The position numbers were made by a program, and so were the translations under genes. 35,687 nt of DNA, from the IMG/VR virus record IMGVR_UViG_2690315992_000010. The stretch is one strand, 5' to 3'. Positions within the stretch are counted from its first letter, which is position 1. Each line of letters begins with the position of its first letter. The notes beneath the pieces are model-generated. The model had not been told where the DNA came from, did no database searches, and saw nothing but the letters and a program-made list of their open reading frames with translations. Source of the stretch: a virus. Taxonomy: Duplodnaviria > Heunggongvirae > Uroviricota > Caudoviricetes. This document shows, one piece after another, positions 1,447-35,687 of this stretch.

Positions 1447-1486
1447 GCCCCTATCGTTATAATACGCGGTAGGGGCGTTTTTGTTT
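1447..1486 (+). terminator. hairpin with T-tract between secreted-protein gene and recombinase gene
   Basis: GCCCCTA...TAGGGGC stem around a TTATAATA centre, followed by GTTTTTGTTT. Could be a terminator/attenuator or a recombinase-associated palindrome. Confidence 0.4.
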
Positions 1487-1495
1487 GGAAATGGT

Positions 1496-3175
1496 ATGAA
1501 AACTAAACTGTATTCGTATATTCGTTTCTCGTCTATGCGTCAGAATGATGGTTCGAGTTATGAACGACAAATCAGGATGGCTAGAGAGATTGCGGTAAAG
1601 TATGACCTTGAACTGGTAAATGATTATCAGGATCTGGGTGTATCTGCGTTTAAGGGTGCTAACTCCAAAACAGGGGCGCTATCTCGTTTCCTTGATGCAA
1701 TAGGTAGATCCGTTCCTGTTGGTAGCTGGCTATTCATCGAAAACTTGGACCGTTTATCCCGTGCCGATATTGTCAGTGCGCAGGAGTTATTCCTTTCAAT
1801 CATCCGTAGGGGGATAACCATTGTTACTGGCATGGATAACAAGATCTACTCGCTGGATACTGTTACCGCTAACCCGATGGACCTGATGTTCTCCATCCTT
1901 TTATTCATCCGTGGTAATGAGGAAAGCCAGACTAAGCGCAATCGTACTAACTCAAGCGCACTGATTAAGATTAAAGCTCATCAAGAAAATCCACAAAATC
2001 CGGCTGTTGCAATCGAGGAAATTGGAAAGAATATGTGGTGGACTGATACCACATCTGGTTATGTGCTTCCTCATCCGGTCTTCTTCCCTATTGTTCAGGA
2101 AGTTGTGGAATTACGCAGGAATGGACGGTCAACCGCCGAGATACTGGATCACCTTAACGCGACATACACACCACCACCAGCCGCAAGTCACAAGAGGCAT
2201 TCAAACTGGTCACGGGCAATGATTGAAAGGTTGTTCCATACCCGCGCTTTGATTGGTATCAAGGAAATCTCTGTAGATGGCGTTAAGTATGAGTTAAAGG
2301 ATTATTATCCTCGTGTGCTAGATGACGCTGAGTTTTATCACCTTAAGAAAAGCATTGGTGTTAGAGCATGTAACTTTGGAGACAAAGAAGAAGTTAAACC
2401 TATTCCCTTGCTTAGTGGTGTTGGTCTATTGAAATGTGAACATTGCGGTTCCGCTATGGTTAAGGTGAAAGGAACAAACAGACGGCCTAACCAATATCGT
2501 TATTCATGCGATGCAATGCGCTCTAGTCGTATTGAATGTGTGCATACAAACTGGAGTTTTCGCGGCGACCAATTAGAGAAAGCTGTATTGCAATTGCTGG
2601 CTGATAAAATCTGGATTGCTGAAGATAAGGCTAATCCGGTTCCGGCTTTGAAAGTACAGATTGATGAAATATCACGCAAGATTGATAACCTGATTACCCT
2701 TTCTGCTATGACAGGAGCAACGAAGGAGCTAGCCGATCAGATTACTACCCTCAATAGCGAGCGTGAAACACTCTACAATCAAATTAAGATGGCAGAAGAG
2801 GAAATGTATTCTGTTGACTCTCAAGGCTGGGAGAAGCTCGCAGAATTTGATTTAGAAGATGTTTACAACGAGGATCGCATTAAGGTCCGGTTTAAGATTA
2901 AGCAAGCTCTAAAACGGATCGGGTGTAGCAGGATTGACAAGTACAAAAACTTGTTTGTACTGGAATACATCGATGGCAAGACCCAGAGAGTTGTAATAGA
3001 AAATTCAAGAGGACCGAGGAAAGGCCGGATCTTCGTTGATTTGAAGACTATCAATGATAGGCAGATTCTGGAGAGTAACGGGCTTGTTCTGCATCCATGT
3101 TTAGACATGCTGACAGATAAGAACTGGAAACCAGAAGAAGAAATACCAGGTCCATTACAGGAATTTGGAATTTAA
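1496..3175 (+). CDS. large serine recombinase (putative serine integrase)
   Basis: N-terminal resolvase-type catalytic domain (YIRFSSMRQ...SYERQ, GVSAFKG, ENLDRLSRA), then recombinase domain, Cys-rich zinc-ribbon (CEHCGS...YRYSCD...CVH) and coiled-coil; 559 aa from ATG 1496. Track start 1481 is TTG; ATG 1496 is in frame. Confidence 0.8.
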   Translation: MKTKLYSYIRFSSMRQNDGSSYERQIRMAREIAVKYDLELVNDYQDLGVSAFKGANSKTGALSRFLDAIGRSVPVGSWLFIENLDRLSRADIVSAQELFLSIIRRGITIVTGMDNKIYSLDTVTANPMDLMFSILLFIRGNEESQTKRNRTNSSALIKIKAHQENPQNPAVAIEEIGKNMWWTDTTSGYVLPHPVFFPIVQEVVELRRNGRSTAEILDHLNATYTPPPAASHKRHSNWSRAMIERLFHTRALIGIKEISVDGVKYELKDYYPRVLDDAEFYHLKKSIGVRACNFGDKEEVKPIPLLSGVGLLKCEHCGSAMVKVKGTNRRPNQYRYSCDAMRSSRIECVHTNWSFRGDQLEKAVLQLLADKIWIAEDKANPVPALKVQIDEISRKIDNLITLSAMTGATKELADQITTLNSERETLYNQIKMAEEEMYSVDSQGWEKLAEFDLEDVYNEDRIKVRFKIKQALKRIGCSRIDKYKNLFVLEYIDGKTQRVVIENSRGPRKGRIFVDLKTINDRQILESNGLVLHPCLDMLTDKNWKPEEEIPGPLQEFGI

Positions 3176-25181: not shown

Positions 25182-27086
25182 TTAGAACGATGTTACCCAG
25201 CTACGGCCTCTATTTGGGCGTCTGGCGATGTTTTTACGTTGTGGTCGTGTGATTGGCTTATTTTCTTCGATTTGCTCGTCAGATTGCGATTTAGGAGCTT
25301 CTACGGATTCTTCTGGTTCACGGTTCAAACTATCTTTGATGGCTTCGAGTTTTTCCCATGACATTTTATTGAGTACATGGCGATAACTAGCCACCGCATA
25401 GGTTAGGCAGTCCAAGCCCTCGTTGCGTTGCTGACCAACTTTTACCCAACGTGTGGTATTACCCTGCCGTTTCAACTGTTCAGATAGCAATTGCTCGCAG
25501 TAGTCATCAGGAACGTCACCAATCTGGAAGACCGTATGAGGATCGCTGTCTCTCAAGTTCCGGTTAATCATTTCACGGATCATCGTCTTAAGGTTGTTTA
25601 CGCCCAGAATTTTAAGGGTAAAACCGCCCGTTCTTGTGTCTTTTACCGGAAGGATTGGAGCATCAACATTACTTGCGCCCTTAATGGCGCATAGATTTTG
25701 CCACCTAGTGCAAAAGCGGTAGATCACTTGCGTAGCTCGTCCGTTTGATGAGTCCACGAAAGCGGATAGCATCGGGATTCGTTGACCGGATCGGGTATAG
25801 AATTTTGCTTTCAGGAAGTTGTAAAGCTGGTCATATGCTGGTGATTCGTGGCGTTCGCAGTTCACATCATAGAATGATCGGTGATCAACTACGCATATCC
25901 CTTTACGAGAGATACCCAGCAAGGTAGATTCCAGACGGTCTTTTTGCTGGTCAACTCCACCTACCAGAGCCAAAACATCATCAGGAATATTATCTAAGCT
26001 AATGTCAGTTTTCAGCGTTTCCAGTTCGTCGGCTGTGCGGTCTTCGTTAAGATCATCGAAGGTTTCACCGAGCACCACATTATAGAACGTTGCCAGCGAC
26101 ATATTCGCGTAGCTATCAGCAAAGTCCACCACACACGCACGGATAGAACTAAACGGAGACATAAGGCGGTTAGCATGAAAACCGATTACTTCCGCATTTG
26201 GTTCGGTGGCGACCCATTCTCCCTGAGCAACAGCACGGAGGCGATCTGGTTCTGACCAATCAGTTTCACATGACGGGCAACGGTAAACGGCTGTGTCTGG
26301 ATTCGGCAGTGATTTACCATTGATTACATGCCAATCAAAGAATACTCTACTCCATTCCATTACGTGTTTGTGTCCGCAATGCTGGCAAACGACGTGGTAT
26401 TTTCTTTTATCCGAGAGTTCCCATTGTTGGTTTATCGCCCCATCCCGCGAAGTTGGAGTAGAAGCAATTACGATCCTTGCATCATCACCGAAAGTGGTTG
26501 CGCGTTGTTCCGCTAGCTGGATCGGGTTCCCTTCGTCTGACTCATCAGCCGCATCAACTTCATCAAGAATAATCAAAGGTAGTGTTTTACCGCGAAGATG
26601 TGATGGACTATTCAACGACATGAAATACATGAATGATCCGTTACGAAGCTGAATAATCGATGAGTTGTTAACGGCATTGCGATCTGACTTGTCGGTGATC
26701 ATCGCCTTTAATTCTGGGGTTGCCTCTAATACTGGCTTCACCTTACCCGCGATCCAGCTATTCAACTCGCGGACGTTTGCTTGCAAAACACCTATATTAG
26801 TGGGGTTGCTGGCGATCCTATGAAAGATAATACCGTTTAGCACAAGAGTTTTACCCAACTGCGCCGAGCACTTTAGCACAATTTTTCGCCTATCTTCGGT
26901 GATCGCGTCCATCATCCCACGTTGGAAAGGATGCAATTTAATTAGCGATCCGGCTTTAACACCATCGGTTGCAACTACATTAGCCTCTACCCATTCGCTA
27001 GGTTTCATGGCTTTAGGTGGGCGAATTGCAGCAGAGATATTTCTGAGAATCTTTTTTAATTTTGCCTTATTAGAAATCAGTTTCAT
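25182..27086 (-). CDS. terminase large subunit (GpA family)
   Basis: 634 aa; Walker A-like KCSAQLGKT, IASTPT motif, Cys-rich zinc-finger-like segment (CQHCGH...CPSC), size similar to lambda gpA; GAGGGTAA RBS before ATG 27086. Confidence 0.8.
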   Translation of the reverse strand: MKLISNKAKLKKILRNISAAIRPPKAMKPSEWVEANVVATDGVKAGSLIKLHPFQRGMMDAITEDRRKIVLKCSAQLGKTLVLNGIIFHRIASNPTNIGVLQANVRELNSWIAGKVKPVLEATPELKAMITDKSDRNAVNNSSIIQLRNGSFMYFMSLNSPSHLRGKTLPLIILDEVDAADESDEGNPIQLAEQRATTFGDDARIVIASTPTSRDGAINQQWELSDKRKYHVVCQHCGHKHVMEWSRVFFDWHVINGKSLPNPDTAVYRCPSCETDWSEPDRLRAVAQGEWVATEPNAEVIGFHANRLMSPFSSIRACVVDFADSYANMSLATFYNVVLGETFDDLNEDRTADELETLKTDISLDNIPDDVLALVGGVDQQKDRLESTLLGISRKGICVVDHRSFYDVNCERHESPAYDQLYNFLKAKFYTRSGQRIPMLSAFVDSSNGRATQVIYRFCTRWQNLCAIKGASNVDAPILPVKDTRTGGFTLKILGVNNLKTMIREMINRNLRDSDPHTVFQIGDVPDDYCEQLLSEQLKRQGNTTRWVKVGQQRNEGLDCLTYAVASYRHVLNKMSWEKLEAIKDSLNREPEESVEAPKSQSDEQIEENKPITRPQRKNIARRPNRGRSWVTSF

Positions 27087-27174: not shown

Positions 27175-27780
27175 ATGCTAATTAATCAGCAACAAAGAGA
27201 TGCATTAGAATTAGCCTTTTCTTGTTGTACCGATCATGAATATCGTTTGCCAGTTAAGCACCATCACAAGAAGACTGATTACACAACATCTGGCTTTAGT
27301 CGTGAGGAAGCTAAACAGATTTTAATCGAGTTGTATCGCGATCATGGGTATACCGATATTCATAACTTCTTTAAGAAGCATCGTACATCACAGACAGAGT
27401 TTAATAGAGTTCGTGAATGGTTTGATTTTGACATTAAGCGATTCTATCGAGTAGATGACGGTCCTATCTATCGGTTGCAGTGGACACCGATTAGGGAAGT
27501 GCTTAAACAGAAGAGATTGAATCATGCCATTACACGCTATCGTAATGTGGCTTTTAAGAAAGGCTATGGTGATTCAAGGGAATTGTTTGTAGAACTCGCT
27601 AACGTGCGATATAGCCACTATTACAGGAATCCTAAAGAGTTCTTCGAAGTGCTGCGCAAGGTTGATATTAGTCGGGGTACATATTATTCACGGTTGAAGA
27701 AGTACGGGATTAAGGCAGAGTTCTTTATGTCGGTTGACGATGGAGAACTTTTTCCGATAAAATGTAAGTCCTCTAAATAA
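27175..27780 (+). CDS. helix-turn-helix protein of unknown function (paralogue family member 1)
   Basis: 201 aa; contains FSREEAKQILIELYRD and C-terminal ISRGTYYSRLKKYGI segments that recur in the two small proteins at 27810 and 31471. Confidence 0.5.
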   Translation: MLINQQQRDALELAFSCCTDHEYRLPVKHHHKKTDYTTSGFSREEAKQILIELYRDHGYTDIHNFFKKHRTSQTEFNRVREWFDFDIKRFYRVDDGPIYRLQWTPIREVLKQKRLNHAITRYRNVAFKKGYGDSRELFVELANVRYSHYYRNPKEFFEVLRKVDISRGTYYSRLKKYGIKAEFFMSVDDGELFPIKCKSSK

Positions 27781-27809
27781 AGGTGAACATTCACTTTAAT
27801 TTGGAGAAA

Positions 27810-28043
27810 ATGACTATGACTACTAAAGCTACTCGCGGTCGCCCTGCCCGTTTTAACGCTGAACAGATGGCTGATATTGCCTACGCTTATTATACAGCGG
27901 ATCGTGGTAAGGAAGCGAAAGAACAGATTCTTAGTGAACATGGGATCTCAATCGCCCAATTCTATAAGAATATGAAGAAGTTGGACATTAAATTCTATGT
28001 TCAGATCGGTGATGGTCAGATCGTAGAAGCAACAGGTTTTTGA
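27810..28043 (+). CDS. small helix-turn-helix DNA-binding protein (paralogue 2)
   Basis: 77 aa from ATG 27810 (GGAG RBS); RGRPARFNAEQMADIAYAYY...ISIAQFYKNMKKLDI. Track start 27783 is GTG. Confidence 0.5.
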   Translation: MTMTTKATRGRPARFNAEQMADIAYAYYTADRGKEAKEQILSEHGISIAQFYKNMKKLDIKFYVQIGDGQIVEATGF

Positions 28044-28236: not shown

Positions 28237-29070
28237 TTACAGTCCGAAGACTTCCAGAGAGCCAGCATTCTGACGAATCAGCAAAGCAGTGTTATTAATG
28301 ATTGCTCGTGAGTTATTCGGCTGTGGCAATTTCAAAGTTGCGGCCTTTTCTTCTTCAAGCAATCCGAGTTTTACGAGATGCGGGATAGCATCAGCAGTGA
28401 ACTCGATCTGACCGTGTGCCGACATACGAGCGAACATATAGCCAGGAGGAAGCAGATCATAGCCTTTAGGCTTACCAGAAGCATCCAGACGACGCTCAAG
28501 AACACCAGCAGCACATAAACCTTTCAGAATCATTTGTACCTTCGTAGAGCCTCGTTTTTCGCCTAATAAGCGGCTAAGACTGTGTGCATCAATAGCTTTA
28601 CGGATATGAAGATCAACTAATTGTTCTTTTTCTTGAATCAGTTGTTCGTTTGCGGCTTCTAATTCCATTGCCTCACGAATCCAATCGAGCTTAGTCATGT
28701 TTGCGTATGGGTTGACTTGCTGAGAACGCAGTTTTTCATTTTCTTCTTTCAGTCGTTTCCATTCCTGAATAACAACCATTCGACGCTTAACATCGTAACC
28801 AGTGACAAGAGTCAGAGTCATTTCTTCGTCTAGTTGATATTCGTTTTGTTCGCGTCCGTATTGGTCAAAATAGATGACGCGAAACTTCGCGTGATCTTCA
28901 TAACCTAGAGCATTCAACATCTTAGTTATATCAACTTTAACTTTGTGGTGTTCTTTTCCGGTAAATTCAGCGATCTGACGAGAAGACATGGTCAGTGGTT
29001 TGGTGTTATCAACAACCAGAGACACGGAAGCAGTTTTAACAGCAGTATTCATAGTAGTAACAGTATTCAT
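28237..29070 (-). CDS. Rha-family phage regulatory protein / antirepressor
   Basis: N-terminal LTMSSRQIAEFTGKEHHKVKVDI matches the Rha-domain signature; ~150-aa C-terminal antirepressor-like domain. Confidence 0.65.
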   Translation of the reverse strand: MNTVTTMNTAVKTASVSLVVDNTKPLTMSSRQIAEFTGKEHHKVKVDITKMLNALGYEDHAKFRVIYFDQYGREQNEYQLDEEMTLTLVTGYDVKRRMVVIQEWKRLKEENEKLRSQQVNPYANMTKLDWIREAMELEAANEQLIQEKEQLVDLHIRKAIDAHSLSRLLGEKRGSTKVQMILKGLCAAGVLERRLDASGKPKGYDLLPPGYMFARMSAHGQIEFTADAIPHLVKLGLLEEEKAATLKLPQPNNSRAIINNTALLIRQNAGSLEVFGL

Positions 29071-30071: not shown

Positions 30072-30713
30072 AGTGGAAATCCTCTAAAAGAAAGTGAATC
30101 AAACAAATTACACTAGTATTTATAACGAGAATTTTTTATCTATTTGGAAGGGATTGGTATTCAGTCGGGCATAGCCCTCCTTCATAGATTTTGATTAAAT
30201 CATCATCAAAACGAAGAAGTATCTTTAGAATATAAGAATCTTTCTTTCGAAGAAAGAATAATCAGGAAGCAATTTCAGCAACCGCAGGTTGCGATCCCGA
30301 AGGGATAACCAATACCTTTCTAGAAAGTGATTGTTACTCACTTCGTTCGTTTACTAGAATCAGTTATCATCTAGTATTAAAATCCCTTTCTAAGAAAATC
30401 CTTTCAAAAGTGATTCTCGATGCCACGCAGTGGCGTCGCAGACGTTTGAGAGTGAGCGAAGCGAGCGAGCAAACTAGTTAATTCCTTCTAAGACCATCTA
30501 GTATCATCTAGTTTAAATTAGTTGTTACTAGAAGTAATTGGTTAGCGCTACGCGCAGTCGGGCAAAGCCCTCCTAATATCTTTTTGGTTATTTTTGGTTT
30601 TACACATGAGCGTAGCGAATGTGTTATATAATATCTATGCACGCCCGATTCCCCGTTTTTACCCCTCACTAAGTTAATGTTTTATAAAGAGTTTTTCTTA
30701 CCAATCCTTTTCG

Positions 30714-30906
30714 GGGGCAAATTTCAGGGGCAAAAATTAGATTTTAAGGGGCAATTATTGGCATTTCAGGGGCAAAAATGAGGGGCAAAATCACTGTTTC
30801 CCAGAATTTCAGGGGCAAAAATAGTGGGTTTCAGGGGCAAAAATGGGATAGTGGAATCTTGGGTATTTTGGTTCGGGGGCAAAATTCAGAATTTCAGGGG
30901 CAATTC
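30714..30906. repeat. array of ~9 direct GGGGCAA(A/T) iterons (5 copies of full TTTCAGGGGCAAAAAT)
   Basis: Core starts near 30715, 30727, 30749, 30770, 30782, 30811, 30832, 30876, 30897; spacings mostly 12 or 21 bp; non-coding. Confidence 0.6.
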
Positions 30907-30993
30907 CCATCAAATATTTTGATAGAAAATTCTTGTATATTATTTAATCAAAAAATCACCAAAAAGTGGCGTAAGTTAATGATTTAAAAAGAA

Positions 30994-31019
30994 TTGTCAA
31001 AAGGTCTCCGTGCTATAAT
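30994..31019 (+). promoter_or_regulatory. candidate extended -10 promoter (rightward)
   Basis: TTGTCAA at 30994-31000 and TGcTATAAT at 31011-31019. Confidence 0.35.
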
Positions 31020-31099
31020 AGGTTATAAAGGTTGATAATCCTGATCTACCATTTTCAAACAAAAATTTTGATAGTCATTTCTCGCTTAGGTCAAGTGTA

Positions 31100-31128
31100 T
31101 TGACAACTGTCAAGGATTATTTTATACT
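31100..31128 (+). promoter_or_regulatory. candidate strong sigma70 promoter (rightward) with palindromic -35 region
   Basis: TTGACA (31100-31105), 17-bp spacer, TATACT (31123-31128); -35 lies in palindrome TTGACAACTGTCAA. Confidence 0.5.
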
Positions 31129-31263
31129 TTTTCTCACTGGTGGGGGTTGAAATTTTCTAAACAGTCCCCATATAGATGATAAGCAAGAATTTCCACGTTA
31201 TAAATACATGTGTGAAATGATTGTTCACTTCTGAAAATCTCCTGATCCACTGCTAATTCATAC

Positions 31264-31291
31264 AGCACTGGTTAGATATACAGTGCTTTTT
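31264..31291 (+). terminator. intrinsic terminator-like hairpin (possible end of a ~160-nt small RNA)
   Basis: AGCACTG-gttagatata-CAGTGCT followed by TTTT. Confidence 0.4.
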
Positions 31292-31415
31292 CGGTTGAAT
31301 ATTGTACGAATTGATTAATAATTAATCTTCTCTTTAGCAATTCGTGCTCCCACTGATCGGATATACAGTGGTTTTACAGGGTTTTCTGAAAATCATTTTA
31401 TAAATACAAGTGTTC

Positions 31416-31436
31416 AGAGCGAAATGCTCTTTTTTA
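31416..31436 (+). terminator. attenuator hairpin immediately upstream of gene 31471
   Basis: AGAGC-gaaat-GCTCT followed by TTTTTT. Confidence 0.45.
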
Positions 31437-31470
31437 AGAAATTATTAATCCACATGTGAGGAATCGACTG

Positions 31471-31650
31471 ATGGCTAGACCTGTTAAGTTCACTCGTGAA
31501 ATGATTGTTGATATTGCTAAACGCTTTTACAGCGACACTGAGCGAGGCGGGGAAAACTTCTTTAAGAAGGAAGGAATTGATAGAAGCGGATTCTACAAGC
31601 TAATGAAGAAATACGAAATTCAGGTAAAGATTAACGTTCAAGTTTGTTAA
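31471..31650 (+). CDS. small helix-turn-helix DNA-binding protein (paralogue 3)
   Basis: 59 aa from ATG 31471 (GAGGA RBS); ARPVKFTREMIVDIAKRFY...IDRSGFYKLMKKYEI parallels the 27810 protein. Track start 31456 is GTG. Confidence 0.5.
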   Translation: MARPVKFTREMIVDIAKRFYSDTERGGENFFKKEGIDRSGFYKLMKKYEIQVKINVQVC

Positions 31651-33408: not shown

Positions 33409-33966
33409 TTACGACACATCAAATTCATCATCTTCTTCTGGTTCTTGTTCTTCCGGTTCATCCATTAATGGTAATTCTTCTTCCTCGTCTTCTCCCAAAT
33501 CTGCATTTTCGAACAAGTCCCCTACTTCATTTAAACGACGCTCGATGATCTCCCTTAGCTTATTCTTCAATGTTTTCTGGTCAGTTGCAGATTCGAGAAT
33601 TTCTAAAGCGTCGATTGTGGCGATCTGCAAAATAGTCTGTTTCACTTTCCCGCAGTATTCCGCTAGTTGCTGTTCTACATAACCGACAGGAATCAGGAGA
33701 TTCATTTTTTCCTGGTTCTCTCGTTCGGCTGCATCTGCCATTGCTCTTTCTCTGCGGAGACGTTCTTGATCAATCGCTTCTTTGATTGAAGTTTGTTTAA
33801 GTGGGTTAATTACGTTCTTTAGCACCCAATCGCAACCTTCCTTTGCTGGAACACGCCTCTTATTGGTATTGTAAGGTAGTCCCCTTTCTAACCATCGCTT
33901 ACCGCCACCATTCAATGTATAACCATATAAACGGGAAATTTCTGTAAGGGTTAATTCTTCTTTCAT
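33409..33966 (-). CDS. terminase small subunit (Nu1-like) candidate
   Basis: N-terminal HTH segment LTLTEISRLYGYTLNGGGKRWLERGLPY resembles the Nu1 DNA-binding domain pattern; central coiled-coil; strongly acidic C-terminus; GGAGGA RBS; palindromes and GC-rich site just upstream. Confidence 0.5.
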   Translation of the reverse strand: MKEELTLTEISRLYGYTLNGGGKRWLERGLPYNTNKRRVPAKEGCDWVLKNVINPLKQTSIKEAIDQERLRRERAMADAAERENQEKMNLLIPVGYVEQQLAEYCGKVKQTILQIATIDALEILESATDQKTLKNKLREIIERRLNEVGDLFENADLGEDEEEELPLMDEPEEQEPEEDDEFDVS

Positions 33967-33984
33967 TGGTTATCCTCCATTAAA

Positions 33985-34043
33985 TTTGCGTAATTTTATT
34001 TATTGGTTTTACGCAAAATCTAAGCGCCTAAAACGCGTTTTAG
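33985..34043. promoter_or_regulatory. palindromic protein-binding sites upstream of small terminase gene (cosB-like candidates)
   Basis: Inverted repeat TTTGCGTAA-N15-TTACGCAAA (33985-34017) and perfect 16-bp palindrome CTAAAACGCGTTTTAG (34028-34043). Confidence 0.4.
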
Positions 34044-34090
34044 CGAAGGGAAAGATCCAGTAATGGTAAGGGTTAGGAAGGGGGTTAATA

Positions 34091-34109
34091 GTCGCGTAGC
34101 GACCGCGCC
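34091..34109. other. candidate cos nicking region (GC-rich island with dyad symmetry)
   Basis: GTCGCGTAGCGACCGCGCC in AT-rich context ~125-145 bp upstream of the Nu1-like start, the position expected for cosN in lambda-like genomes. Inference only. Confidence 0.25.
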
Positions 34110-34324
34110 ATGAGTGAAGTGATCACGTTTTAAAATCTCACACGCACATCAAATACCGGGGTGCCGAAAACTCCCTTTATTTCATCCGTGGAACAGTACC
34201 TTTTTAATTTGTCAAGCATTAATTTCTTAATTTAATTACTAAATCTCATCCCAATAATTGAAAAAATATCAAAAATCAATAAAGTAAGCATCTAAAAGTC
34301 AGTCCATACCAAAAGAGGTATAAA

Positions 34325-35104
34325 ATGAAAAACATTATCGCTGCTATCGTGCTTTCTGCTACTGCTTTCGGTGCTGATGCTGCGTCCTTTGATTGCACTA
34401 AGGCTACTACCAAATCAGAGAAGTTTATTTGTGCTAACGAGTCTATCTCCGCACTGGATTCGAAACTTCATGAAGTATATGTTAAAGCTGTTAAGATTGA
34501 TCCATCTCTGAAACAAGAGCAACGCAACTGGAATAAAACTGTTCGTGATACAATGATCAATATCGGGCAGATTCAGCCACTGGAGGCTGTATACAACGCT
34601 CAAATCCAAAACTTGATGAATGTATTATCTAAAGAAGAAACCGCGTCAGAGAGCGATTCAGAGACTTCTGCGAAGGTTGAAGAAGAACAACCGAAACAGG
34701 AAGAAGTAAAGAAACTGAATGTTACCGCGATTTACGCATGTACTACAAAATTTACATGGAAAGTTATCGATGGTGAGGAAACAGAAGCTGTAAAAGATAA
34801 ACTCTACGGAAACAAAACTTTTGATAATAACGGCGGTAAACTTAAGATCAAAATGGTAGACGATGTTCCGGTATCTTTTGTGTATTCCGACAAGTATGAT
34901 GTTTATAAATCAAGTCTCAAGCCATCTAAAGAGAATCCAAACGCAATGGAAGGTAAATCCAAACAGGATACTATTGGACGTGTTAACACTTATAACATCT
35001 GGGTAAGCAAAAAAGGTGACATGCGTCTTGAAGTAATTGAACCAAAATTTGATTCTGAATATAAACACACTCAATTTGCATGTGACATGGTAGACGCAGA
35101 GTAA
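34325..35104 (+). CDS. secreted protein with DUF1311 / LprI-like N-terminal domain
   Basis: Signal peptide MKNIIAAIVLSATAFGADA; SFDCTKATTKSEKFICANESISALDSKLHEVY matches the conserved Cys-containing DUF1311 signature; AGAGG RBS. Confidence 0.55.
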   Translation: MKNIIAAIVLSATAFGADAASFDCTKATTKSEKFICANESISALDSKLHEVYVKAVKIDPSLKQEQRNWNKTVRDTMINIGQIQPLEAVYNAQIQNLMNVLSKEETASESDSETSAKVEEEQPKQEEVKKLNVTAIYACTTKFTWKVIDGEETEAVKDKLYGNKTFDNNGGKLKIKMVDDVPVSFVYSDKYDVYKSSLKPSKENPNAMEGKSKQDTIGRVNTYNIWVSKKGDMRLEVIEPKFDSEYKHTQFACDMVDAE

Positions 35105-35336: not shown

Positions 35337-35687
35337 TTATTTTGGGTTGACTACATTCGGGTTGCCAATTCGCCAGGCTAACTCTTGCTGAGTGATTTCT
35401 GACTGTAAAAAAGCATTTAACAGCAATACTTTAGAGGCGACGCTCAAAGGTACTTCAATAAAGTGATCATGACTATTTAATGGCGAAGGTAACGGGATAA
35501 GCTCGTTATCTTCAAAATAAAAATCAAATGCGGTCAGTAAAGCATCTTTTGCCGCTTCCATCGCTTCAGCGACAGTTTCGCCCTGCGTCAACGCTTCAGG
35601 GATATCCACAAAAGAAACCATATAACCGCCTTCCGGCGCGGGTGTAAGAGTGACGGGATAACGCATAATTTCGACTGTCTCTCGCAT
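35337..35687 (-). CDS. hicB: HicB-family antitoxin, N-terminal domain only; C-terminal DNA-binding domain apparently truncated at junction with phage-like DNA
   Basis: MRYPVTLTPAPEGGYMVSFVDIPEALTQGETVAEAMEAAKDALLTAF... recognised as HicB N-terminal domain (recalled as near-identical to E. coli HicB; not verified). ORF ends ...ITQQELAWRIGNPNVVNPK* inside what should be the first helix of the HTH. Base composition and codon usage look more host-like here. Confidence 0.55.
   Translation of the reverse strand: MRETVEIMRYPVTLTPAPEGGYMVSFVDIPEALTQGETVAEAMEAAKDALLTAFDFYFEDNELIPLPSPLNSHDHFIEVPLSVASKVLLLNAFLQSEITQQELAWRIGNPNVVNPK

What the first reader, a model, noticed from the sequence alone, without database searches (positions are those of the whole stretch)
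33985..34109. Candidate cos region upstream of the Nu1-like gene
Two palindromic elements (33985-34017 and 34028-34043) and a GC-rich dyad (34091-34109) occupy the positions where lambda-like genomes carry small terminase binding sites and the cohesive-end nicking site. This supports the small terminase call and predicts the virion genome ends.
Basis: inference. Interest (0 to 1): 0.45.

Follow-up and report, generated by a model that had tools for sequence, protein, structure and literature searches.

The report
Candidate cos region of hicB prophage
The palindromes upstream of the small terminase gene are real and lie in a 250-bp conserved non-coding block that is probably this E. coli prophage's DNA-packaging (cos) site, but the GC-rich dyad looks more like a small-terminase recognition site than the cutting site.

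Summary
All three elements exist exactly as described: a 9-bp inverted repeat (33985-34017), a 16-bp palindrome (34028-34043) and a GC-rich dyad (34091-34103/34109). Together they appeared in 0 of 2000 shuffles. They lie in a ~250-bp non-coding block (33967-34216) kept upstream of a distant Nu1 homologue in E. coli, Salmonella and Proteus prophages. The window is a ~35.3-kb prophage inserted in hicB, with a lambda gpA-type large terminase 6.3 kb from the small-subunit gene. A cos site here is the best reading (about 0.65-0.7), but no virion ends could be found.

- The inverted repeat keeps its geometry in every relative.
- The 16-bp palindrome is perfect in only one other aligned locus.
- The dyad core is invariant in "type I" relatives. 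It is replaced in "type II" relatives, including one whose large terminase is 96% identical (first 390 aa). Core type always follows the small terminase's DNA-binding domain, so the dyad behaves like cosB rather than cosN.
- A better nick-site candidate is a GC-only run (34156-34166) between conserved T-rich flanks, about 190 nt upstream of the gene, as in lambda.

This is an ordinary kind of feature in an undescribed phage family.

The parts
33409..33966 (-). Nu1-like small terminase gene (185 aa), with an N-terminal winged-HTH domain and an acidic C-terminal tail
   Evidence: PHROG 57 'terminase small subunit' at E=7e-11. hhalign of a 17-sequence profile to lambda Nu1: 94% probability, E=9e-8, residues 4-91. 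Weak PDB sequence hits to three small-terminase entries. The AF2 model shows strand-helix-turn-helix-wing. No Pfam or NCBIfam hit.
33967..34216 (-). Conserved non-coding block upstream of terS: the candidate cos region, which must also hold the terS promoter
   Evidence: Homology among E. coli relatives runs from terS to window 34216 and then breaks into variable cargo genes. Homologous blocks are present in Salmonella and Proteus relatives.
33985..34017 (.). Inverted repeat TTTGCGTAA-N15-TTACGCAAA (core GCGTAA-N15-TTACGC, 33988-34014) with an A-tract spacer. Candidate small-terminase binding site (R1/R2-like) or operator.
   Evidence: Perfect 9-bp arms. The half-site geometry is kept in all aligned relatives, including Proteus (GCGGAA-N15-TTTCGC). 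It occurs once in the prophage.
34024..34043 (.). 16-bp palindrome CTAAAACGCGTTTTAG (34028-34043), of which only the half GCGCCTAAAACG (34024-34035) is conserved
   Evidence: Perfect in the window and L005; the symmetry is broken in the other groups. The related motif CGTTAYAGSSC is kept in Salmonella and distant E. coli relatives.
34085..34108 (.). Invariant 24-nt core TTAATAGTCGCGTAGCGACCGCGC containing the dyad GTCGC-GTA-GCGAC (34091-34103). This is the 'type I' specificity element; I read it as a cosB/R3-like small-terminase site, with cosN as the alternative.
   Evidence: Identical in every IMG/VR locus with upstream sequence and in all 11 metagenome contigs. 16 of the 24 nt (34091-34106) are identical in Salmonella relatives whose flanks differ. 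It is replaced by a different island in type II relatives. It occurs once in the window.
34126..34178 (.). Block B: conserved T-rich flanks around a GC-only run CCGGGGTGCCG (34156-34166). Alternative, and in my reading better, candidate for the nicking site.
   Evidence: The pattern G.GTTT(T)C-[GC-rich 6-7 nt as parsed]-CG.T.TTT is present in nearly all relatives, including Proteus. The centre has 8 GC-rich variants by the script plus 2 read by eye, while the flanks are kept. It is shared by type I and some type II elements.
34195..34216 (-). Block A: AGGTACT (34195-34201) and CTTGACA (34210-34216) at the distal edge of the conserved block. Possibly promoter-related.
   Evidence: Conserved in most relatives. 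The consensus scan finds no sigma-70 promoter on the minus strand.
25182..27086 (-). Large terminase, lambda gpA type, 6.3 kb downstream of terS
   Evidence: Pfam GpA_ATPase at 1.4e-59 and GpA_nuclease at 8.6e-45; PHROG 15 at 1e-139.

Best explanation
The ~250-bp conserved non-coding block 33967-34216 is the packaging-recognition (cos) region of a ~35.3-kb temperate phage integrated in hicB.

Proposed mechanism, all inferred by analogy with lambda:
- The Nu1-like small terminase binds, through its N-terminal winged-HTH domain, to sites in the gene-proximal half of the block.
- These sites are the inverted repeat at 33985-34017, the conserved GCGCCTAAAACG at 34024-34035 and the invariant GC dyad core at 34085-34108.
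- That binding positions the gpA-type large terminase to make staggered nicks.

The proximal half plus the small terminase's DNA-binding domain form one specificity cassette (cosB-like), which exchanges independently of the large terminase. I place the nick site most likely in the GC-only run 34156-34166, between conserved T-rich flanks, about 190 nt from the start codon. The GC dyad is the second candidate.

The block must also hold the terS promoter, because every gene upstream of it is on the opposite strand.
For: Shown:
- The elements exist and cluster beyond chance.
- The gene is a distant Nu1 homologue, and the only terminase large subunit is gpA-type. To my knowledge all characterised members of that family make cohesive ends.
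- Homology among 61-64 E. coli genomes runs from terS to 34216 and then breaks.
- The same block architecture is found in Salmonella, Proteus and distant E. coli relatives.
- The 24-nt core is invariant in every type I E. coli locus with upstream sequence, and 16 nt of it persist in Salmonella among diverged flanks.
- The inverted-repeat geometry is kept in all aligned relatives.
- The inverted repeat and the core are each unique in the prophage.
- Core type I or II matches the small terminase N-domain type in all loci for which both were read, and occurs with all three large-terminase lineages. Lambda and 21 share cosQ and cosN but differ in cosB and the TerS N-terminus in the same way (PMC4669245).
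- Block B has conserved flanks around a GC-only centre that differs between lineages. This resembles the variable cohesive-end bases between conserved nick flanks described for lambda-like phages (PMC4669245).

Inferred: all binding, nicking and the choice of nick site.
Against: - There is no direct evidence of termini. No phage record matches, and every contig found reads through the block.
- terS is 6.3 kb from terL, unlike lambda.
- There is no lambda-type cosN and no IHF consensus in the block.
- Co-inheritance of the core with the TerS N-domain is also what tight linkage (125 nt) would give.
- The Block B flanks are direct, not two-fold symmetric, and do not track large-terminase lineage.
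- A 32%-identical Rouxiella relative has only 64 nt upstream of its terS.
- The inverted repeat overlaps where a promoter or operator for terS would sit, with a TAnnnT hexamer in its spacer.
Confidence: 0.45

Rival explanations
1. The GC dyad at 34091-34109 is cosN, where staggered nicks create the virion ends. The inverted repeat and the palindrome between it and the gene are the small-terminase binding sites (cosB).
For: - The dyad core is the longest invariant non-coding run, 24 nt, in type I relatives, and 16 nt survive in Salmonella among diverged flanks.
- It is GC-rich, two-fold symmetric and unique in the genome.
- The 125 nt between it and the ATG match the ~120-bp length of lambda cosB (PMC4669245).
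- A conserved TTTTAAAAC lies 20-30 nt upstream, roughly where lambda has cosQ (the cosQ position is from my own knowledge).
Against: - L056 has a large terminase 96% identical over the first 390 aa, yet a completely different sequence at this position. Both core types occur with all three large-terminase lineages.
- Core type follows the TerS DNA-binding domain instead.
- A perfectly palindromic overhang could self-anneal or fold into a hairpin, which known cohesive ends avoid (inference).
- The 16-bp palindrome is not conserved as a palindrome.
Confidence: 0.2
2. The block is only a transcriptional control region for the terS unit: a promoter plus an operator, perhaps auto-repressed by the MerR-like small terminase or by another phage regulator. 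The packaging site lies elsewhere, or packaging is headful.
For: - terS has no co-oriented upstream gene, so a promoter must be in the block.
- The inverted repeat lies 19-51 nt before the ATG, and its spacer ends in a conserved TAnnnT hexamer (TAAAAT, TACAAT, TACCAT).
- A conserved TTGACA marks the distal edge.
- The Rouxiella relative has only 64 nt upstream of terS.
- The top fold matches of the model are MerR-family regulators, though none is significant.
Against: - No sigma-70 consensus promoter is found on the terS strand.
- 250 bp with at least four separately conserved blocks is more than a simple promoter and operator need.
- The inverted repeat is not repeated at other operon starts, such as upstream of terL.
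- No other non-coding region looks like a cos site. The 88 nt upstream of terL are AT-rich with no dyad, and the 1.4-kb ORF-free gap holds iterons instead.
- gpA-type terminases are cos enzymes as far as I know.
Confidence: 0.25
3. The palindromes are chance features of an AT-rich intergenic spacer in a defective prophage and have no function.
For: - Each element alone has a 2-5% chance in shuffles.
- The 16-bp palindrome is not conserved as a palindrome.
- The prophage lacks recognisable replication and repressor genes.
Against: - All three elements together appeared in 0 of 2000 shuffles.
- There is strong block-wise conservation across genera.
- The family is widespread, with intact structural genes, and is present in 64 of 5426 complete E. 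coli genomes.
- An attP-like junction in a 35,485-nt contig suggests the element excises.
Confidence: 0.03

Closest known systems
Bacteriophage lambda cos (cosQ-cosN-cosB with R3, I1, R2, R1) and the Nu1/gpA terminase
   Same: - A non-coding site of about 200-250 bp lies immediately upstream of a Nu1-type small terminase gene.
- The large terminase is gpA-type.
- An inverted pair of candidate binding sites sits just before the gene, as R2 and R1 do in lambda.
- A GC-rich candidate nick region lies ~190 nt from the start codon.
   Different: - There is no lambda-like 12-nt cohesive-end sequence and no IHF site.
- The small terminase is only ~19-24% identical to Nu1 and misses the Pfam model.
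- terS and terL are separated by 6.3 kb that holds regulatory genes and an iteron array.
- Integration uses a serine recombinase, at hicB.
[quoted passage not shown] 2015, PMC4669245
   Same: The DNA just upstream of terS and the TerS N-terminal domain are inherited together as type I or type II. They are combined with different TerS C-domains and large terminases, and the recombination joints fall inside terS and inside the non-coding block.
   Different: Specificity has not been tested here. The cassette includes a single invariant dyad rather than recognisable 16-bp R repeats. Linkage alone could produce the same pattern.
N15-type 'simple' cosB (a single critical R3 site near cosN)
   Same: If the nick site is at 34156-34166, the invariant dyad core lies about 50-70 bp from it. 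That is where R3 lies in lambda and N15.
   Different: This depends entirely on the unproven nick-site placement. There is no sequence similarity.

Membership tests
Lambda-like cos site (sensu Feiss: lambda-like cohesive ends) | 12-nt cohesive-end sequence related to GGGCGGCGACCT | tested here: not met
   With up to 3 mismatches there are 8 matches, against 11.3 expected by chance, and none lies in 33967-34216.
Lambda-like cos site | Located directly upstream of the small terminase gene, within ~200 bp | tested here: met
   The conserved block 33967-34216 abuts the terS start at 33966.
Lambda-like cos site | IHF site (I1) between TerS-binding repeats | tested here: not met
   WATCAANNNNTTR has 4 matches in the window, none in the block.
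Lambda-like cos site | Several TerS-binding repeats, one of them inverted | tested here: inconclusive
   One conserved inverted pair (GCGTAA-N15-TTACGC) and looser GCGYTWA-like repeats seen by eye. No binding data.
Lambda-like cos site | Virion DNA ends with complementary single-stranded extensions at the site | not testable with these tools
   No phage record or contig end was found at the block.
Lambda-like cos site | Single copy per genome and conserved among relatives | tested here: met
   unique; conserved.
Nu1-type small terminase | Sequence homology to Nu1 or the small terminase family | tested here: met
   PHROG 57 at E=7e-11. hhalign to lambda Nu1 at 94% probability, E=9e-8. Pfam and NCBIfam give no hit, so the homology is distant.
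Nu1-type small terminase | N-terminal winged helix-turn-helix DNA-binding domain | tested here: inconclusive
   The AF2 model (pLDDT 70) has strand-helix-turn-helix-wing at residues 4-40. The top Foldseek hits are MerR-family wHTH proteins, but all have E>1.
Nu1-type small terminase | Gene adjacent to the large terminase gene | tested here: not met
   6.3 kb apart. The same separation is conserved in Salmonella, Proteus and other E. coli relatives. The genes are adjacent only in a 32%-identical Rouxiella relative.
gpA-type (lambda) large terminase | GpA_ATPase and GpA_nuclease domains | tested here: met
   E=1.4e-59 and 8.6e-45.

The most novel reading that the evidence does not exclude
An undescribed family of ~35-kb enterobacterial temperate phages has a split terminase locus. 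A cos-plus-terS cassette sits at one prophage end next to attP, and a ~6-kb iteron-bearing early region separates it from terL. The DNA site and TerS DNA-binding domain form interchangeable packaging-specificity cassettes (types I and II) that reassort freely among three large-terminase lineages. In this reading the invariant GC dyad is the specificity determinant, and the cohesive end is a lineage-variable GC-only run.
Probability: 0.35. Interest if true: 0.45.

Novelty: new variant of a known kind. Interest (0 to 1): 0.33.

Why it matters
If confirmed, this would define the packaging site and virion ends of a widespread but uncultured prophage family. The family is present in about 1% of complete E. 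coli genomes and also in Salmonella and Proteus. It would also give a natural second example, outside the lambda/21/N15 group, of exchangeable cosB/TerS-domain specificity cassettes. In practice it tells anyone inducing these prophages where to look for termini, and which 250 bp would make a plasmid packageable. It does not change general understanding of cos packaging.

Tried and rejected
- **Cultured relatives with known ends.** Megablast, blastn and tblastn against 50,697 phage records gave nothing for the region or for TerS. The best large-terminase hit is 43% (DCP80), and its upstream region is unrelated.
- **Contig ends as a proxy for virion ends.** The IMG/VR loci look like prophage excerpts of about 35 kb, and some are cut exactly at the terS start. 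Logan, ENA and JGI contigs all read through the block. They break instead at the edge of homology or near att.
- **Satellites carrying the same site elsewhere in E. coli genomes.** None found.
- **Structured RNA or DNA.** No Rfam hit. The fold z-score of the block is 0.06. The dyad is not followed by a T-run, so it is not a terminator.
- **IHF site and lambda cosN.** Both absent.
- **A cos site next to terL.** The 88 nt there are AT-rich with no dyad. The 1.4-kb ORF-free gap holds iterons, not a cos-like site. A 9-nt match there to the core (CGCTACGCG, 30546-30554) is within chance.
- **Cos-end joining as the cause of the mosaic joints in Block B.** I rejected this because packaging from cos to cos returns parental genomes.
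- **The species-level genome scan.** It returned only one distant relative, in Rouxiella.

Full report
**What the window is**

The window is essentially one complete prophage of about 35.3 kb with about 41% G+C. In the close relative E. coli MEI003 the same element splits the hicB antitoxin gene. The 5' part of hicB, then hicA and yncJ, lie next to the end that carries the finding. The 3' part of hicB and ydcR lie next to a large serine recombinase at the other end.

Reading the minus strand from the right end, the order is:
- truncated hicB (35337-35687);
- an LprI-like cargo gene on the plus strand (34325-35104);
- a 358-nt intergenic region that holds the finding;
- a 185-aa gene (33409-33966);
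- about 6.3 kb of small regulatory-type genes with a 1.4-kb ORF-free stretch;
- a lambda gpA-type large terminase (25182-27086);
- portal, protease-capsid fusion, tail genes and endolysin;
- the recombinase on the plus strand (1481-3175).

**Check of the observation**

All three elements are present at the stated coordinates:
- TTTGCGTAA (33985-33993) and TTACGCAAA (34009-34017), perfect 9-bp arms 15 nt apart.
- CTAAAACG|CGTTTTAG (34028-34043), the only perfect 16-bp palindrome in the window.
- GTCGC-GTA-GCGAC (34091-34103), running on as CGCGCC to 34109.

In 2000 dinucleotide-preserving shuffles of the intergenic region the three kinds of element appeared in 4.2%, 1.6% and 5% of shuffles, and never together. 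The 19-nt GC island is one of 14 in the window, and most of the others lie inside genes.

**Is the gene a small terminase?**

Pfam and NCBIfam find nothing. Pairwise identity to lambda Nu1 is 19%. The following results nevertheless support the call:
- PHROG 57 'terminase small subunit' matches residues 25-169 at E=7e-11.
- A 17-sequence profile aligns to lambda Nu1 residues 2-109 with 94% probability.
- A profile search of the PDB lists three small-terminase entries among its weak hits, including 1J9I, the Nu1 DNA-binding domain.
- An AlphaFold model (pLDDT 70) has strand-helix-turn-helix-wing at the N-terminus, followed by long helices and a disordered acidic tail.
- Its best fold matches are MerR-family winged-HTH proteins, but none is significant.

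No other small-terminase candidate lies next to the large terminase. I accept the call as a distant Nu1 homologue.

The unusual point is the 6.3-kb separation from the large terminase. That separation is conserved in E. coli, Salmonella and Proteus relatives. Only a 32%-identical Rouxiella relative has the two genes adjacent.

**Conservation of the non-coding DNA**

The region occurs in 64 of 5426 complete E. coli genomes. Many matches stop at window 34216, beyond which different cargo genes follow. Alignments of IMG/VR, Logan, ENA, JGI and NCBI loci show a block of about 250 nt with separately conserved parts. Read towards the gene, these are:
- **Block A**: CTTGACA (34210-34216) and AGGTACT (34195-34201).
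- **Block B** (34126-34178): conserved T-rich flanks around a GC-only run (34156-34166).
- **A 24-nt core** (34085-34108) that contains the dyad.
- **A conserved GCGCCTAAAACG** (34024-34035).
- **The inverted repeat.**

The inverted repeat keeps the geometry GCGTAA-N15-TTACGC, with an ATAAATA centre, in all aligned relatives. In Proteus it reads GCGGAA-N15-TTTCGC.

The 16-bp palindrome is perfect only in the window and one other aligned locus (L005). In the other groups its left half has changed and the symmetry is lost. As a palindrome it is probably fortuitous.

The inverted repeat and the core each occur once in the prophage.

**The GC dyad**

The 24-nt core is identical in every IMG/VR locus with upstream sequence that was found through the protein, and in all 11 metagenome contigs found through a pattern near the start codon. 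Two Salmonella relatives keep 16 of the 24 nt although their flanks differ.

A second set of relatives ('type II': L046, L049, L056, L059/L060, L074, and a variant in L047) has no dyad at this position. They carry a different conserved island, TTTTCAAAWYGGTTYAGTTAASCC.

The large terminases fall into three lineages. Relative to the window's protein, one is at 96% identity, one at about 80%, and one at about 55%. Both core types occur with all three lineages:
- L056 has a large terminase 96% identical over the 390 aa available, yet a type II core.
- L051 and L054 have large terminases only 58% identical, yet the type I core.

Core type always matches the type of the small terminase's N-terminal domain. 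That domain is 73-88% identical to the window's within type I and 46-56% identical in type II. L056 combines a type II N-domain (52%) with a window-like C-domain (89.5%).

In the lambda group, lambda and 21 share cosQ and cosN but differ in cosB and in the N-terminus of TerS, and the two travel as a roughly 600-bp cassette (PMC4669245). By that analogy the dyad behaves like a cosB element, not like cosN.

Two cautions apply. The dyad lies only 125 nt from the gene, so linkage alone would also give this pattern. And large terminases placed by bound small terminase might tolerate different nick sequences.

**An alternative nick site**

Nearly all relatives, including Proteus, have the pattern G.GTTT(T)C, then a G+C-rich centre, then CG.T.TTT. 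The centre is 6-7 nt as parsed by the script and 7-11 nt when the adjoining G/C bases are counted. It differs between lineages: the script separated 8 GC-rich variants, and I read 2 more by eye in L049 and L047. The flanks are kept throughout.

Conserved nick flanks around more variable cohesive-end bases are described for lambda-like phages (PMC4669245). In the window the GC run lies about 190 nt from the start codon, which is the lambda distance (from my own knowledge of the lambda sequence). That placement would put the dyad about 50-70 bp from the nick, where R3 lies in lambda and N15.

Against this reading, the flanks are direct repeats rather than two-fold symmetric, and the variants do not track large-terminase lineage.

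**What could not be shown**

- No record in the phage collection matches the region or the small terminase.
- Every contig recovered reads through the block. Contig ends fall at the edge of homology or near att.
- No satellite carries the site elsewhere.
- The block has no lambda cohesive-end sequence, no IHF consensus, no Rfam match and no unusual folding.
- No sigma-70 consensus promoter is found on the terS strand. A promoter must nevertheless be there, since all upstream genes face the other way. The inverted repeat, whose spacer ends in a conserved TAnnnT hexamer, could therefore be an operator.

**Verdict**

That this is the packaging region is the best explanation, at about 0.65-0.7 in total. 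It rests on homology of both terminase subunits, position, block-wise conservation, uniqueness in the genome, and the lack of a better site elsewhere in the prophage.

The specific prediction that virion ends lie at 34091-34109 has about 0.2 probability. I consider the GC run at 34156-34166 at least as likely, and I read the dyad as a small-terminase specificity site. A purely regulatory role for the block has about 0.25 probability.

This is a known kind of feature in an undescribed phage family with an unusual split terminase layout. Interest is modest.

Noticed in passing
window 30709-30908 (within the ORF-free stretch 30072-31455): About nine iterons, TTTCAGGGGCAAAAAT, at 21-22-nt spacing, lying between terS and terL. 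This looks like a replication origin or partition-type site. The ORF-free gap is conserved in relatives.
   Followed up: partly
window 30150-30620: A cluster of GC-rich hairpins in the ORF-free stretch: a GCGAAGC-type motif at 30448-30470, and CAGTCGGGCAWAGCCCTCCT twice, at 30162 and 30555. No Rfam match. Possibly a non-coding RNA or origin elements.
   Followed up: no
window 35337-35687, and to the left of position 1 (L002, L050): The prophage is inserted in the hicB antitoxin gene and truncates it. The recombinase is a large serine recombinase (1481-3175). Other family members sit next to a 2-hydroxyacid dehydrogenase gene instead (L047, L056, L057).
   Followed up: partly
L051 1-60 (Logan contig SRR31546711_3486, 35,485 nt): The contig starts with a junction that resembles attP (phage left arm joined to phage right arm) rather than hicB. 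This suggests an excised circular form, and so an active element.
   Followed up: partly
window 27783-28043, 31456-31650 and the C-terminus of 27175-27780 (all plus strand): Three paralogous small ORFs share an RGRPxKF...FYKxMKK helix-turn-helix-like motif. They have no family hit. They face against the structural genes.
   Followed up: no
window 9930-10703 (minus strand): A gene matching homing endonuclease families (PHROG 314 at E=1.6e-25) sits inside the tail gene module.
   Followed up: no
whole window: No recognisable repressor, replication initiator or holin was found among the ORFs scanned. The only regulatory hit is a Rha/antirepressor-like protein (28237-29070). The early functions of this 35-kb phage are essentially unannotated.
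   Followed up: partly
L001 (Escherichia phage DCP80, PQ671644.1, 1-9611): A 141-kb record classified as a T4-like Gaprivervirus begins with 1.2 kb of repeat-rich non-coding DNA, followed by a gpA-type terminase/portal/capsid module 35-48% identical to this prophage. This is odd for that taxon and may be a chimeric assembly or a misclassification.
   Followed up: no
window 34046-34083: CCCTT(C/A)(C/G) occurs three times at 11- and 22-nt spacing (in helical phase) between the dyad core and the palindrome, on a G-poor strand. It is only partly conserved in relatives.
   Followed up: no
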